Virus record (IMG/VR): IMGVR_UViG_3300044711_000045
Coordinates: 5,300-69,299 of that record
Reading direction: 5' to 3' (one strand)
From: a virus
Lineage: Duplodnaviria; Caudoviricetes
Length of the DNA: 64,000 bases
Below the pieces are notes generated by a model that saw only the letters and a list, made by a program, of their open reading frames with translations, searched no databases and was not told the DNA's origin. Each line of letters starts with the position of its first letter. Positions within the stretch are counted from its first letter, which is position 1. Shown piece by piece: positions 3,489 through 24,942 of the stretch. The translations under genes and the position numbers were made by a program.

Positions 3489-3975
3489 GCTGATCATTTG
3501 TCGCCTTGATCCCGCCGTGGATCGTGAGTTGTTTGAGATTGCGTATCACTGGGATGAAAACAGCCCTCGGTGGTATCGTGAGTCGGATGGTATTTTTCGG
3601 CCAAGTTTAGAAGAGCTAACAACGCCAGATGATAACCAATCCTTCATTGGCGTATTCAACGGATCGTACATTGGACTTCTCGCTCTTAGCTTACGCGCCA
3701 AGGGAATATTTGAACTGCACATGTGGGCCAAGCGAGGGTCGGACGCAGCCACGATAGCGGAAGCGGCGTTTCACGTGAAACGTTCACTGTTCAAAGACCT
3801 AGACGCCAAGAATCTCTTTGCGATGGTCGCGAAAAAGAATTACAAAGTCAGAGAAATGTGCAACAATGTTGGACTGGTGGAAACAGGTGCGGTAATGATC
3901 AAGGGGACCTACGGAAATCGTTGTATCGAGTGGTTAGAACATGCTGCAATAGATGAGCAAGAACAAAAAAACTAA
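3478..3975 (+). CDS. GNAT-fold protein of the podovirus tail/ejection module
   Basis: FIGVFNGSYIGLL...FELHMW...NLFAMVAKKNYKV..MCNNVGLVETG pattern, in the position typical after the stabilisation gene. Confidence 0.65.
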   Translation: MSSELIICRLDPAVDRELFEIAYHWDENSPRWYRESDGIFRPSLEELTTPDDNQSFIGVFNGSYIGLLALSLRAKGIFELHMWAKRGSDAATIAEAAFHVKRSLFKDLDAKNLFAMVAKKNYKVREMCNNVGLVETGAVMIKGTYGNRCIEWLEHAAIDEQEQKN

Positions 3976-20506: not shown

Positions 20507-20704
20507 TTACCTCACTCCTAGCGGCGGCCTGCCGCGTCCTCCCCTGCGCCACGGCTTGAATCCCAACCGCTTACGCTGCGCGTCCATATTCGCCCGATGA
20601 TGCTTTAGACAGTAGGAACTCGACTTAACGGTTCTCTTTCTTGAGCAGCTTACACATAGTCCTTGTTCTTTGTGTCGTCTTTGATAATCTCGCTGTCTAC
20701 TCAC
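20507..20704 (-). CDS. Small basic Cys/His protein, likely DNA-binding
   Basis: GLCVSC...YCLKHH and C-terminal GRPPL. Likely start GTG 20704. Confidence 0.55.
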   Translation of the reverse strand: MSRQRDYQRRHKEQGLCVSCSRKRTVKSSSYCLKHHRANMDAQRKRLGFKPWRRGGRGRPPLGVR

Positions 20705-20711
20705 GGAGATT

Positions 20712-20741
20712 ATACTAATTGACTGCACGATGTATTGTCAA
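20712..20741 (-). promoter_or_regulatory. sigma70-type promoter (leftward)
   Basis: TTGACA (20741-20736), 18 nt, TAGTAT (20717-20712). Overlaps the inverted repeat ATTGAC...GTCAAT (20718-20742). Confidence 0.6.
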
Positions 20742-20753
20742 TGATTATTTCTC

Positions 20754-20782
20754 TTGCCACCTCCCGCTGGTGAGAGTATGAT
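20754..20782 (+). promoter_or_regulatory. sigma70-type promoter (rightward) for structured RNA locus
   Basis: TTGCCA, 17 nt, TATGAT. Confidence 0.75.
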
Positions 20783-20788
20783 GTGATT

Positions 20789-20985
20789 GCGTCGGAGTAC
20801 GTCCTCGGTCGCAGTGGTTGGAGCAGGTTGGAATCGTGGCGTAAGCGCGATTTAGGTGTGAGTCTTCGGACTTGCAGGACGCGAACTTCCTACTCCAACC
20901 ACGAAGCTCGTAGCTTCCGAAATCACAGTAACGTTACCCATGCGTGGCGGTAATCAGTCCCGCCGCTAAAATGAGACTGACTAAA
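20789..20985 (+). ncRNA. Structured RNA / 5' leader with UUCG and GNRA hairpins and 3' H-type pseudoknot
   Basis: 10-bp stem 20814-23/20893-902, C(UUCG)G 8-bp hairpin, GC(GUAA)GC hairpin. Pseudoknot GUGGCGG/CCGCCGC with UCAGUC/GACUGA. Confidence 0.7.
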
Positions 20986-21013
20986 TCATGTTCGCAACTT
21001 GGAGGTAGAACCC

Positions 21014-21172
21014 ATGAATGAAACGATAGAAGCCACAGAAGAAGTTAAGTCACTGGTAAAGAAGGCGGCAGACACAACGGACTCAAACGACGCGCTGAAG
21101 TTCTCACAAGCGGCCTTGAATGTCGCACACGCGATGGCAACTTTGCGTAACTTCGACAACAAGAATAATTAA
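21014..21172 (+). CDS. 52-aa helical protein between two structured RNAs (not in track)
   Basis: GGAGGT RBS. MNETIEATEEVKSLVKKAADTTDSNDALKFSQAALNVAHAMATLRNFDNKNN. Confidence 0.75.
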   Translation: MNETIEATEEVKSLVKKAADTTDSNDALKFSQAALNVAHAMATLRNFDNKNN

Positions 21173-21178
21173 GCCGAC

Positions 21179-21347
21179 ATTGAGACTGCGGCGGCGTGGA
21201 GGTCTGAGACTATAAATCGTTCGCAGGAACGACGAAGGACACGCTGACATGGAGTGCACTCCGAAACATCAAGCCAGATAGTGAGCGAAAGCCATACTTG
21301 TGCGAATGCTGGCATAGTTGGTATCAAGCCCAACTCGCAGTCTCAAT
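21179..21347 (+). ncRNA. tRNA-like ncRNA copy A
   Basis: 12-bp terminal stem ATTGAGACTGCG/CGCAGTCTCAAT, D-like arm GCGT-GGA[35 nt]AGGAC-ACGC, T-like arm GTTGG-TATCAAGC-CCAAC. Confidence 0.75.
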
Positions 21348-21374: not shown

Positions 21375-21383
21375 TGTTATAAT
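21375..21383 (+). promoter_or_regulatory. Extended -10 promoter
   Basis: TG-T-TATAAT, 8 nt before ATG 21392. Confidence 0.6.
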
Positions 21384-21391
21384 CATGGCCC

Positions 21392-22873
21392 ATGAAACAT
21401 CTAATCATGGCCTTGTTGTTGTTGACGCTGACCATCCCGCTTATTGCTCGTTCAAGTAATCCATCGCCACCTCCTCTCCAATGGATTCAAATTCCCAACT
21501 CCCCCTCCGAAGTACTTAGCATCGCTTTCATCAACGCCACCCTCTACGCCGCCACTCGCACTCAGGGACTATGGAGTTACGACGGCACGCAATGGACGCA
21601 GGTGCAGGGATTAGCCGCTGGGCCGGTGTGTCAACTACAAGTCACACCAGCTAAGTCGCTAATAGCTTGCGTGGTAGACAGTTCGAGCAATCCCTTCACT
21701 CACGATTACCGCTACGCCAATGGGCAATGGAAGCAGGTTGTCAACTCAGGGGCGTACTATGAAGCTGACCACGCAATTGACGTAGACGGGGCGATAATTC
21801 AAACCTCGGAGCACATGATCCGGCGCTCAACTGATGATGGGCAGAGTTACACAGACATCGGGCCGGTTGATCCACAGGTTGCCGCGTACTGCATAGCGGT
21901 TGGTTCAACGGGCATATGGTACGTCGGCAGCGAAAATACGGGGATCTATTACTCCACCGACAAAGGAAAGACGTGGAAATCACTGGGATATATGGAAGTG
22001 TATCCTGACCAACTATATCCCTTCGGCAATCCGAGTTCAATAAGATTCGCCAGCGGTCAACCAATCGTAACAACAGGTCAAGGTGGGGTGTTTCTGCACA
22101 CGGGGATCGCAACCGCGCCAACATGGATGACTGGTAATTGCGTGAATCCACCCAACCCGCAGACGTTGTGTTATCCGGTGGTGTTGCCACCTTATCCTGA
22201 TCCCGCAGCGAGAGATAACACCGCGCATGATGTGTTGAAATTAACAGACGGCACCCTGCTACTGCACGGTGGGCATCTATACACCTCACCGGATGGGTCA
22301 GCGTGGACACGTAACGATCAGGGACTTCCCGACACACTGCTCAACACCCCCTATCCCGCAGGCCGCTACTCGCTCATGTCCCATACTCTAGCTTACGGGC
22401 CGGATGGTCGGGTGTATGTTGGCATTCCTGCCCCCGGATTAGGCGTTTGGCGCACCACGACTGTTTCTCCGTCTCCCTCGCCTTCCGCCTCTCCTAGCCC
22501 CGCTACAACGCCAGCAACGGGCATTCAGGTGGTTAGTGCGACGTATGGAGGGAATGTGGGGGCAACTGTGGGGAATGCGACGACCCCCATCGCCTCAGTG
22601 TGCAATGGAAAAACGGGGTGTGTGTACACGGTGGATTATCGCGTGTTGGGAGACCCCGTTCCAAATAAAGCCAAAGATTACGTGGTCAGATATGATTGCA
22701 ACGGTAGTACGCAGGTAGCAAGTGCAGCGGCTGAGGCAGGATTGGGGTCTACGGTTACGTTGACGTGTGTGGGTGGGACACCTTCACCGTCGCCACAACC
22801 ATCCCCCACTCCCACTCCCACAACCATCCCCTGCACCATCATTAACAAGGTGTTGACGTGTCCGTTGCCGTAG
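21392..22873 (+). CDS. Secreted Asp-box (BNR) beta-propeller + Pro/Ser linker + SUEL-type (Gal/Rha-binding) lectin-like domain
   Basis: Signal peptide. Asp-boxes RSTDDGQSY, YSTDKGKTW, TSPDGSAW. SPSP linker. IQVVSATYGG...CNGKTGC...GDPVPNKAKDYVVRYDC. Confidence 0.7.
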   Translation: MKHLIMALLLLTLTIPLIARSSNPSPPPLQWIQIPNSPSEVLSIAFINATLYAATRTQGLWSYDGTQWTQVQGLAAGPVCQLQVTPAKSLIACVVDSSSNPFTHDYRYANGQWKQVVNSGAYYEADHAIDVDGAIIQTSEHMIRRSTDDGQSYTDIGPVDPQVAAYCIAVGSTGIWYVGSENTGIYYSTDKGKTWKSLGYMEVYPDQLYPFGNPSSIRFASGQPIVTTGQGGVFLHTGIATAPTWMTGNCVNPPNPQTLCYPVVLPPYPDPAARDNTAHDVLKLTDGTLLLHGGHLYTSPDGSAWTRNDQGLPDTLLNTPYPAGRYSLMSHTLAYGPDGRVYVGIPAPGLGVWRTTTVSPSPSPSASPSPATTPATGIQVVSATYGGNVGATVGNATTPIASVCNGKTGCVYTVDYRVLGDPVPNKAKDYVVRYDCNGSTQVASAAAEAGLGSTVTLTCVGGTPSPSPQPSPTPTPTTIPCTIINKVLTCPLP

Positions 22874-23855: not shown

Positions 23856-24587
23856 CTAACCAATAGACAGAACCGCAGGATTCAAAACACCGCCGCTTTT
23901 GTTCGCTCGTTCGCCTTCGTCTTTGATTTGGGTTTTGAGGTTGTGCCAGCGTCGGAGTTCTTCGCCGTGTTCCCAAGCTCCAGCGAGCATTGACACCGCC
24001 GCGCCGTACATGAATCCTGTGATTCCTTCGTCGTCCGCCACGCTCGAACACTCTTCGGCGTTATCAACAAGCCATCGCGTTATCTGTGCCGACTCCAACC
24101 CTTGTGGCATTCGCGCTTGCATCAACCGCCCCCACTTCTCGGCGTATCGAACACAGGCTGCGCCGTACCCGTCTGAATTGGCGTCAACCCATGACTGCCA
24201 CTTGCCGACATCGCGTAGAGCCAACGGAGGCGCAGATGCTAACGCTCCCTGAAGTGTCGCCGTCTTAATCGCTTGGCTCTTGTCGTATTCCGCTTGCCGG
24301 ACGCGCTGGCGTTCGTCGCGCTCATCTGTCAGCCGTTTATCTTCCGCCAACTGTTCCGCGCTCAATTCGACAGGCGGATAGGGTTCGACCGTGAAAGTAT
24401 TTGACGGTCGCAACATCCCGCGCCACCAATCGCGTAGAATCAGCTCAGGATTCGAGTCACCAGCGACTTGAACTGTCACGCCATTGAATTCAAATTCAAC
24501 CGTGTCGGAGTGCTTTCGCGCTTCATCGATAGCGAGAGCAATAGCTCCGTTAATTCTTGACCCTGCGTATGATTCAAACTTCCTCAT
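23856..24587 (-). CDS. Hypothetical phage protein
   Basis: AAGGAG RBS. EGITGFMYGAAVSML motif. Directly downstream of tRNA-like RNA B. Confidence 0.75.
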   Translation of the reverse strand: MRKFESYAGSRINGAIALAIDEARKHSDTVEFEFNGVTVQVAGDSNPELILRDWWRGMLRPSNTFTVEPYPPVELSAEQLAEDKRLTDERDERQRVRQAEYDKSQAIKTATLQGALASAPPLALRDVGKWQSWVDANSDGYGAACVRYAEKWGRLMQARMPQGLESAQITRWLVDNAEECSSVADDEGITGFMYGAAVSMLAGAWEHGEELRRWHNLKTQIKDEGERANKSGGVLNPAVLSIG

Positions 24588-24612: not shown

Positions 24613-24745
24613 GAATTGCGCGGGGTCGGGCTTAATACCGACTATGAGTTTGCTCCACGGCGCTACGAACTTAATCTGCTGGCCCGTGCGGGTTCGCGCC
24701 TCCAGCGCCCCTGCCTGCGTGTCCTTCCACGCCGCCCGCGCATTC
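24613..24745 (-). ncRNA. tRNA-like ncRNA copy B
   Basis: Reverse complement GAAT-GCGCGGG-CG-GCGT GGAAGGAC ACGC-...-CATA-GTCGG TATTAAGC CCGAC-CCCGCGC-AATTC. Confidence 0.75.
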
Positions 24746-24804: not shown

Positions 24805-24942
24805 AGGGATGCGTAGACTGAGGTCGCTCGGTTCTACTTTGGACTTATCGAATTGCCTTTTCGATCCGTCAGTGCTCGCAATCGCGTAGGTAACGGTTTT
24901 AGCTTGCGGCCTCTACCGCCCTCAATCATCTACGCATTCCCT
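24805..24942 (-). ncRNA. Multi-stem structured element upstream of tRNA-like RNA B
   Basis: Terminal stem AGGG.AUGCGUAGA.UUGAGG / CCUCAG-UCUACGCAU-CCCU. Inner GCGGU/ACCGU and AUCGAA/UUCGAU. Confidence 0.55.

What the first reader, a model, noticed from the sequence alone, without database searches (positions are those of the whole stretch)
20754..21172. Promoter-driven ~200-nt structured RNA with terminal pseudoknot, ahead of a 52-aa ORF
Seen: a near-consensus promoter (TTGCCA-17-TATGAT) gives a start near 20789. It is followed by a 5' hairpin, a multibranch domain closed by a 10-bp stem with C(UUCG)G and GC(GUAA)GC loops (fixing + orientation), a GAAGC/GCTTC hairpin, and an H-type pseudoknot (GUGGCGG/CCGCCGC; UCAGUC/GACUGA; A-rich linker UAAAAUGA) about 20 nt before the RBS. 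The transcript would continue through the small ORF into tRNA-like copy A. Inference: an unknown riboswitch-like leader or stand-alone ncRNA forming an RNA-peptide-RNA unit.
Basis: partly seen in the sequence, partly recalled or inferred. Interest (0 to 1): 0.7.

Follow-up and report, generated by a model that had tools for sequence, protein, structure and literature searches.

The report
Orphan structured 5' leader in a phage
A 225-base untranslated stretch ahead of a small phage gene is predicted to fold into a neat set of hairpins and a pseudoknot, but it has no relative anywhere, so it is a plausible yet unproven regulatory leader; the tRNA-shaped RNA just downstream of it belongs to a widespread phage RNA family that is absent from Rfam 15 and unannotated in GenBank phages.

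Summary
The window is a complete 69-kb IMG/VR phage genome.
- a sigma-70-like promoter at 20754-20782
- a three-way junction at 20814-20902 with GUAA and UUCG loops
- a small hairpin
- an H-type pseudoknot at 20944-20980
- a Shine-Dalgarno site and a 52-aa gene

The helices are robust in the folding ensemble. The pseudoknot pattern is unique in the window.

The statistics are modest:
- whole-leader z is -1.4
- the junction ranks about 10th among plus-strand windows
- tetraloop hairpins occur at chance frequency

No homologue of the leader was found, using Rfam, a covariance model, pattern scans of IMG/VR and JGI metagenomes, or a structural descriptor.

The 52-aa gene is a real and widespread small phage protein. 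In about 90 other loci it has a median upstream gap of 53 nt and no such leader.

The downstream tRNA-like RNA is a real family with covariation: 86 IMG/VR loci, 20 bacterial-genome loci (at least one a likely chance match) and partial matches in 4 GenBank phages. It occurs without the leader or the peptide gene. There is therefore no conserved RNA-peptide-RNA unit and no support for a riboswitch.

Best reading: a lineage-specific structured 5' UTR, confidence about 0.45.

The parts
20754..20782 (+). sigma-70-like promoter TTGCCA-17-TATGAT; predicted start about 20789
   Evidence: 10 of 12 matches; one of 8 sites with at least 10/12 in the window; lies at the strand switch between the minus-strand genes ending at 20728 and the plus-strand genes from 21014
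20719..20748 (+). second, weaker candidate promoter TTGACT-18-GATTAT, face to face with the minus-strand promoter TTGACA-18-TAGTAT (20741-20712)
   Evidence: 9/12 and 10/12. A transcript from here would carry ACCUCC at 20759-64, which pairs with the SD in the MFE and centroid folds
20789..20812 (+). weak 5' hairpin
   Evidence: -7.9 kcal/mol, z -0.9; not above chance
20814..20902 (+). three-way junction: P1 20814-23/20893-902 plus 20825-27/20889-91; P2 20831-53 with GUAA loop 20841-44; P3 20857-76 with UUCG loop 20865-68; 12-nt junction strand 20877-88
   Evidence: MFE -39.6, z -4.1, 0 of 200 shuffles; pair probabilities: P1 about 1.0, P2 0.75-0.79, P3 0.71-0.96; rank about 10 on the plus strand
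20903..20917 (+). P4 hairpin GAAGC-UCGUA-GCUUC
   Evidence: z -2.4; probability above 0.93
20944..20980 (+). candidate H-type pseudoknot: S1 GUGGCGG/CCGCCGC, L1 UAA, S2 UCAGUC/GACUGA, L3 UAAAAUGA
   Evidence: the only instance of this geometry on either strand of the window, 0.25 expected per strand; S1 alone -12.3 kcal/mol, S2 stack -6.6
21001..21005 (+). Shine-Dalgarno GGAGG, 8 nt before the ATG; nucleotide similarity to other phages begins at about 20998
   Evidence: 15-nt RBS block 93% identical in 5 unrelated loci; P(unpaired) 0.3-0.47
21014..21172 (+). 52-aa gene of a widespread small phage protein family (motif [FY]SQAA[LC]N[VA]A)
   Evidence: 10 IMG/VR, 2 Logan and 124 metagenome matches at 40-72% identity
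21179..21347 (+). tRNA-like RNA copy A (core 21185-21341), probably co-transcribed; member of a widespread phage RNA family
   Evidence: no terminator between the ORF and the element

Best explanation
The stretch 20789-21013 is a lineage-specific, structured 5' untranslated leader.

The transcript starts at the sigma-70-like promoter 20754-20782. A weaker promoter about 35 nt upstream may also fire. It runs through the 52-aa gene and, with no terminator in between, into tRNA-like RNA A.

The leader folds into independent local modules: a three-way junction, a hairpin and an H-type pseudoknot. These leave the Shine-Dalgarno site roughly half exposed.

The most likely role is in cis:
- a stable 5' structure that protects this early or accessory transcript from 5'-end-dependent decay, and/or
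- a docking site, the pseudoknot 20 nt before the SD, for a protein that tunes translation.

Shown: the sequence features, their thermodynamic robustness, the non-coding status, the reality of the downstream gene, and the absence of the leader from every other locus that carries that gene.

Inferred: that the promoter fires, that the RNA adopts this fold, and any function.
For: - The gap 20729-21013 has no credible ORF and no protein-level or tblastx relative. The genome is 91% coding.
- A plus-strand promoter is needed here because the upstream genes are on the minus strand. The best site in the gap is 10/12.
- P1-P4 and S1 have pair probabilities of 0.75-1.0 whether or not the ORF is included. 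They appear in the MFE and the centroid of every context folded.
- Junction z is -4.1 with 0 of 200 shuffles.
- The pseudoknot geometry is unique in the window.
- Three G-U pairs in P2 and P3 would be A-C mismatches on the other strand.
- Elsewhere the same gene has a median upstream gap of 53 nt, or 44 nt in the closest relative. The extra 225 nt is therefore an addition in this phage.
- The phage carries other structured non-coding RNAs close by: two tRNA-like copies and a 140-nt multibranch element with z -4.3.
Against: - There is no homologue, so no covariation. One sequence cannot prove a fold.
- Whole-leader z is only -1.4.
- About ten plus-strand windows, mostly coding, fold as well after GC correction.
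- The minus strand of the junction scores as well, z -4.5.
- Tetraloop hairpins are at chance frequency.
- About 0.5 pseudoknots of this kind are expected per window, and the search criteria were set after seeing this one.
- Promoter-like sites are not enriched in the region: 4 found against 2.6 expected.
- There is no transcript evidence of any kind, and the host is unknown.
Confidence: 0.45

Rival explanations
1. Incidental structure. The gap is a divergent promoter and spacer region, perhaps left by recombination when the 52-aa gene cassette was acquired. The predicted helices have no selected function.
For: - The leader has no relative in IMG/VR, JGI metagenomes or about 3.4 Mb of fetched loci.
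- Stability is not exceptional genome-wide.
- Tetraloop hairpins are at chance level.
- Homology with other phages starts abruptly at about 20998, as expected at a cassette junction.
Against: - Four separate high-probability modules plus the window's only pseudoknot of this geometry fall together in 0.4% of the window.
- Phage genomes rarely keep 225 nt of functionless DNA.
Confidence: 0.3
2. Stand-alone, trans-acting non-coding RNA. The junction, with or without the pseudoknot, is cut out of the precursor and acts on a host or phage target, for example as a decoy in this accessory and anti-defence region.
For: - The module is closed by a 10-13-bp stem, like the second multibranch element that precedes tRNA-like copy B, z -4.3.
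- A Tad4-like anti-Thoeris gene lies 3 kb away.
- The adjacent tRNA-like RNA offers an RNase P-type processing site (the processing step is inference).
Against: - There is no terminator or defined 3' end.
- There is no long complementarity to anything else in the window.
- The two upstream elements are not significantly alike: 48 of 500 shuffles score as well.
- No family members exist.
Confidence: 0.12
3. DNA-level element. The inverted and direct GGTTGGA repeats (20816, 20826 and inverted at 20894) are protein-binding sites, such as an operator, or part of a replication origin.
For: - Three of the nine GGTTGGA copies in the window lie within 85 bp, two of them 10 bp apart.
- The region sits at a strand switch and at the turn in GC skew.
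Against: - The sites lie 30-110 bp downstream of the promoter rather than over it.
- The heptamer is not over-represented in the window: 9 found against 7.6 expected.
- Two of the three copies are already explained as the arms of P1.
- GC skew follows transcription direction throughout the window.
Confidence: 0.08
4. Ligand-sensing riboswitch. The pseudoknot, or the three-way junction, controls translation of the 52-aa gene.
For: - It is an H-type pseudoknot with an A-rich third loop close to an SD, a geometry shared with small pseudoknot riboswitches (the comparison is from general knowledge).
- The 3' arm of P1 can pair with the SD region at -10.2 kcal/mol.
Against: - No Rfam family matches at E<=10, even in a 236-nt search.
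- No conservation at all, whereas riboswitch classes are widespread.
- The SD lies 20 nt outside the pseudoknot and is about 30-47% unpaired.
- P1 at -19.1 far outcompetes the anti-SD pairing.
- The downstream gene has no link to any metabolite.
Confidence: 0.04

Closest known systems
Phage T4 gene 32 mRNA leader (H-type pseudoknot upstream of the ribosome-binding site, used as a nucleation site for translational autoregulation)
   Same: An H-type pseudoknot a few tens of nucleotides 5' of the SD in a phage mRNA leader, followed by an A/U-rich unstructured stretch. The comparison is from general knowledge.
   Different: The downstream gene here is a 52-aa helical protein of unknown function, not a single-strand binding protein. 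There is no evidence of autoregulation, no sequence relation, and a large three-way junction lies upstream.
5' stem-loop stabilisers of bacterial and phage mRNAs (for example the ompA 5' UTR)
   Same: Stable structure at or near the 5' end of a long leader, with the SD left accessible.
   Different: Known stabilisers are simple hairpins at the very 5' end. Here the 5'-terminal hairpin is the weakest module (z -0.9), and the strong modules start 25 nt in.
Small pseudoknot riboswitches (preQ1-I/II, SAM-II/V) and three-way-junction riboswitches in Rfam
   Same: Pseudoknot with an A-rich loop crossing a G-C-rich stem; a junction with a GNRA loop.
   Different: No covariance-model match at E<=10. 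No L2 or ligand-pocket nucleotides, the SD is not part of the pseudoknot, and there is no family.
tmRNA (tRNA-like domain, pseudoknots and a short reading frame)
   Same: Pseudoknotted RNA, a short ORF and a tRNA-like element lacking an anticodon arm lie on one transcript.
   Different: ARAGORN finds no tmRNA. The ORF has its own SD and ATG and has protein homologues in unrelated phages. The tRNA-like element is contiguous and complete on its own.

Membership tests
Any Rfam 15 family (riboswitches, ribozymes, leaders, sRNAs) | Covariance-model score at or above the family's gathering threshold | tested here: not met
   (whole window: only tRNA-Leu). (E<=10 on 1001 nt and 236 nt: only two noise hits of 13 bits).
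Riboswitch (generic) | Aptamer conserved across many genomes with covariation | tested here: not met
   No homologue in IMG/VR or JGI metagenomes. None in 166 loci searched with model R1. None in 3.4 Mb searched with a structural descriptor.
Riboswitch (generic) | Expression platform that sequesters the SD or forms a terminator | tested here: not met
   No terminator. SD P(unpaired) is 0.3-0.47, and the pseudoknot ends 20 nt before the SD. Anti-SD pairing is -10.2 against P1 at -19.1 kcal/mol.
Riboswitch (generic) | Specific ligand binding | not testable with these tools
   Needs in-line probing or ITC.
tmRNA | tRNA-like domain formed by the 5' and 3' ends, enclosing a tag reading frame without an SD or start codon | tested here: not met
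   ARAGORN finds none. The ORF has GGAGG-8-ATG and is a protein family.
Structured cis-acting 5' leader (generic kind) | Lies between a promoter and the start codon on the coding strand, is non-coding, and has a well-defined fold | tested here: met
   Transcription itself is not testable here.
Structured cis-acting 5' leader (generic kind) | Conserved together with the gene it precedes | tested here: not met
   About 90 homologous gene loci have short upstream gaps and no R1 match.
Phage tRNA-like RNA family (adjacent element, not the leader) | A 7-bp closing stem; a 2-nt spacer; a GCGUG/CACGC hairpin; a variable domain; a 5-bp stem with the UAUYAAGC loop abutting the 3' strand | tested here: met
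   Copies A and B both fit. On 89 sequences 97.5% of cells pair, and all 7 closing-stem pairs and 3 T-like-stem pairs show changes on both sides. The GCGUG/CACGC stem is invariant because the search pattern required it. 0 of 500 shuffles reach the observed covariation. The leader itself is not a member.

The most novel reading that the evidence does not exclude
This phage expresses a set of modular, stem-closed structured RNAs from its accessory and anti-defence region. They are the three-way junction plus pseudoknot described here, the 140-nt multibranch element at 24805-24942, and two tRNA-scaffold RNAs.

On this reading the leader is a new trans-acting RNA, such as a decoy or sponge for a host defence or RNA-binding protein. 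It would be released from a polycistronic precursor by cleavage at the tRNA-like element, and would not be a passive UTR.
Probability: 0.1. Interest if true: 0.65.

Novelty: new member of a known kind. Interest (0 to 1): 0.3.

Why it matters
If the fold is real, it is an example of a phage adding a large structured leader to a mobile small-gene cassette that elsewhere has none. That would give a clean natural comparison for asking what such leaders do, whether stability, translation control or protein docking.

On present evidence it is a single-genome candidate and should not be catalogued as a riboswitch or as a composite RNA-peptide-RNA system.

The more consequential result of this follow-up lies next door. 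The tRNA-shaped element downstream has these properties:
- it is a covariation-supported RNA family
- it has no Rfam 15 match
- it has a core that is invariant within the pattern-selected set, in phages and prophages of at least five bacterial phyla
- cultured phages contain partial matches to it, and nothing is annotated at those places

Tried and rejected
1. Known RNA family. Rfam at gathering score and at E<=10 gave nothing.

2. Conservation with the 52-aa gene. I fetched 10 IMG/VR, 2 Logan and 80 metagenome loci. Only the 15-nt RBS block is shared, and upstream gaps are short.

3. Related phages. The large terminase, the 82-aa, 73-aa and 493-aa proteins have no or almost no relatives. The five phages that share the small gene share nothing else.

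4. Direct search for the leader.
- Six degenerate 24-nt patterns, obtained by submitting the spurious frame 20783-20953 as a protein, found nothing in IMG/VR or JGI metagenomes.
- The junction pattern CTTCGG-N5-11-GGACGCGAACTT gave 7 hits, about the number I estimated by hand for chance, and none matched R1.
- The single-sequence covariance model R1 was run over the window, 5 whole phage genomes, 86 tRNA-like loci and 80 ORF loci. Only the self hit was found.
- A structural descriptor (GNRA hairpin, UUCG hairpin and a closing stem of at least 8 bp) over 3.4 Mb found the leader itself and one chance hit inside a gene.

5. Decayed gene. tblastx found nothing.

6. Paralogy with the element upstream of tRNA-like copy B. 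Not significant: 48 of 500 shuffles score as well. A shared GGCGGTA..CCGC..CTAAAA motif occurs only at these two places, but it was defined after the fact and the pseudoknot topology is not shared.

7. Trans target. There is no extended complementarity within the window.

8. tmRNA-like reading. Rejected.

9. Host identification failed.

Full report
**Context**

The window is bases 5300-69299 of a 69,299-bp IMG/VR virus record with direct terminal repeats, rated complete. It is about 50% G+C and 91% coding. It has few recognisable proteins:
- a weak large-terminase match
- a sliding clamp
- a PIF1-like helicase
- a helicase-methylase
- a Tad4-like anti-Thoeris protein at 23856-24587
- a phage ABA-sandwich protein

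The finding lies in a 285-nt gap (20729-21013). On one side is a minus-strand block ending with a 73-aa gene (20507-20728). On the other is a plus-strand 52-aa gene (21014-21172), followed by a 219-nt gap and a 493-aa secreted protein gene. The host is unknown.

Yes at the level of sequence. The promoter scan returns TTGCCA-17-TATGAT at 20754-20782 with 10 of 12 matches. It also returns a weaker plus-strand site (20719-20748) that sits face to face with a minus-strand promoter (20741-20712). No intrinsic terminator is found between 19.5 and 22.5 kb. Only eight sites in the whole window, both strands, reach 10/12.

- a 10-bp closing stem, plus three further pairs across a C-A mismatch
- two enclosed hairpins capped by GUAA and UUCG
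- then GAAGC-UCGUA-GCUUC
- then the 7-bp GUGGCGG/CCGCCGC hairpin, whose loop UCAGUC is complementary to GACUGA eight nucleotides downstream

In the partition function these helices have probabilities of 0.75-1.0, whether the leader is folded alone or with 90 nt of the ORF. They persist when the transcript is started at the upstream promoter.

**Is it more than chance?**

Only moderately.
- The 94-nt junction has z -4.1 (0 of 200 shuffles), but its complement has z -4.5.
- The full 215 nt has z -1.4.
- The 5' hairpin has z -0.9.
- I folded every 100-nt window of the 64 kb on both strands. After GC correction the junction ranks about tenth on the plus strand. That is level with the genuine tRNA-Leu and behind several coding windows.
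- Stems of at least 6 bp capped by UUCG or GNRA occur 9-10 times per strand, against 6.8 expected.
- A scan for H-type pseudoknots of this geometry finds exactly one in 128 kb, this one, against about 0.25 per strand in shuffles. The criteria were set after seeing it.
- Strand choice is suggested, not fixed. Three G-U pairs in P2 and P3 favour the plus strand. The C-A in P1 would be a G-U on the minus strand.

Taken together, four robust modules plus the only such pseudoknot fall in 0.4% of the window. That is suggestive, not proof.

**What it is not**

- Not a known RNA family. Rfam 15 gives nothing at gathering thresholds over the window, nothing at E<=10 over 1 kb, and only two 13-bit noise hits in a 236-nt search.
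- Not a tmRNA. ARAGORN finds only tRNA-Leu(UAA).
- Not coding. The 56-codon frame 20783-20953 starts inside the -10 box, has no SD and has no relative. tblastx against all fetched loci is empty.

**The downstream gene**

It is real. Its product aligns with small proteins from unrelated phages around an invariant SQAA..N.A core. I found 10 loci in IMG/VR and 124 matches in JGI metagenomes, of which 80 were fetched. The 5.8-billion-protein collection gave one relative at 72% identity, encoded on two Logan contigs.

Nucleotide similarity to those loci begins at about 20998, the RBS block. Elsewhere the gene sits in operons, with a median upstream gap of 53 nt and 44 nt in the closest relative. 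The phages that carry it share nothing else with this one. The 225-nt leader is therefore an addition specific to this phage.

**Search for relatives of the leader**

All attempts failed:
- blastn and nhmmer against the gene's homologous loci
- five whole phage genomes by DNA search
- a covariance model of 20812-20925 run over those genomes, 86 tRNA-like loci, 7 pattern hits and 80 metagenome loci
- degenerate-pattern scans of IMG/VR and JGI metagenomes
- a loop-plus-junction pattern, which gave 7 hits, about the number I estimated by hand for chance
- a sequence-free structural descriptor over 3.4 Mb
- this scan's own index

The phage has no close relatives: TerL and the 82-, 73- and 493-aa proteins have none or one.

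**The proposed RNA-peptide-RNA unit**

The tRNA-like copy A (21179-21347) and copy B (24613-24745, minus strand) are true paralogues. Their local alignment scores 53, against 22 +/- 3.8 in shuffles.

A pattern built from their shared blocks retrieves:
- 86 IMG/VR loci
- 20 loci in bacterial genome contigs, probably prophages, of Alpha-, Beta- and Gammaproteobacteria, Chloroflexi, Bdellovibrionaceae, Verrucomicrobia, Syntrophus and a CPR lineage; at least one of them, L134, does not pair and is probably a chance match in a coding region

Separately, a blastn search with one family member (L099) gave partial matches in GenBank. Caulobacter phage DMCA matches in two pieces covering 40% of the query. 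Komagataeibacter phiKX1/2 and Pseudanabaena Pan3 match only about 25 nt at the 3' end. Nothing is annotated under any of these matches.

On 89 sequences the 7-bp closing stem and the 5-bp T-like stem are 95-98% paired. Ten pairs change on both sides, and 0 of 500 shuffles reach the observed covariation. Rfam has no match.

None of the 86 IMG/VR loci contains the leader or the 52-aa gene. Only one of 80 gene loci has a tRNA-like element within reach (L156). The three parts are independent modules that happen to be adjacent here.

**Mechanism**

The SD is about 30-47% unpaired and lies 20 nt beyond the pseudoknot. The 3' arm of P1 could pair with the SD at -10.2 kcal/mol, but P1 itself is -19.1. 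An equilibrium switch is therefore unlikely. If the upstream promoter fires, the longer transcript carries ACCUCC (20759-64), which pairs with GGAGGU in both the MFE and the centroid. The two isoforms could then differ in translation, but this is speculative.

I rank the readings as follows:
- a cis-acting structured leader, for stability and/or a protein-docking pseudoknot: 0.45
- incidental structure at a cassette junction: 0.30
- a processed trans-acting RNA: 0.12
- a DNA-level site: 0.08
- a riboswitch: 0.04

**Verdict**

This is an orphan candidate leader of ordinary kind, with no comparative support. Interest is about 0.3.

The neighbouring tRNA-like family is the discovery worth following.

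Noticed in passing
window 21179-21347 (+) and 24613-24745 (-); L038-L123, L131-L150: The 'tRNA-like' elements belong to a widespread phage RNA family.
- Architecture: a 7-bp closing stem, 2 nt, a GCGUG-GAAGGA-CACGC hairpin, a variable 60-90-nt domain in place of the anticodon arm, a GCCGG-UAUCAAGC-CCGGC hairpin, and the 3' strand.
- Distribution: 86 IMG/VR loci and 20 loci in bacterial genomes of at least 5 phyla (at least one, L134, looks like a chance match).
- GenBank phages: Caulobacter phage DMCA matches both conserved ends. Komagataeibacter phiKX1/2 and Pseudanabaena Pan3 match only about 25 nt at the 3' end. Nothing is annotated at these places.
- Covariation is strong in the closing stem and the T-like stem.
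- There is no Rfam match and no literature hit for the core strings.
- One member (L082) nests a whole tRNA in the variable domain.
- Idea: a natural tRNA scaffold that carries variable payloads.
   Followed up: partly
L053:3432-3751 and 3774-3893: ARAGORN calls a permuted tmRNA (tag ANDEVYDNRLAA) 22 nt upstream of a tRNA-like family member. Several other members lie within 1 kb of ordinary tRNA genes.
   Followed up: no
window 24805-24942 (-): A 140-nt multibranch element closed by a stem of about 17 bp (z -4.3) lies upstream of tRNA-like copy B and the Tad4-like gene. It is not significantly similar to the leader. It shares GGCGGTA..CCGC..CTAAAA with the leader, a motif found only at these two places in the window and in none of 854 kb of family loci.
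   Followed up: partly
window 21014-21172 (+); A3; L151-L230: The 52-aa protein belongs to a widespread family of small phage proteins, mostly 44-60 aa. It has an invariant SQAA..N.A core and no Pfam or PHROG match. There are at least 124 matches in soil and groundwater metagenomes.
   Followed up: partly
window 21375-21394 (+) and 20700-20741 (-): Two genes may be expressed as leaderless mRNAs. TGTTATAAT ends 8 nt before the ATG of the 493-aa gene. The minus-strand TTGACA-18-TAGTAT(AAT) is followed within about 8 nt by an in-frame GTG of the 73-aa gene.
   Followed up: no
window 20718-20742: ATTGAC-N13-GTCAAT. The -35 boxes of the two divergent promoters form a palindrome, a possible operator.
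   Followed up: no
window 23856-24587 (-): A 243-aa protein whose C-terminal half matches Pfam Tad4, a Type I Thoeris inhibitor (E 1.9e-26). It lies directly downstream of tRNA-like copy B.
   Followed up: no
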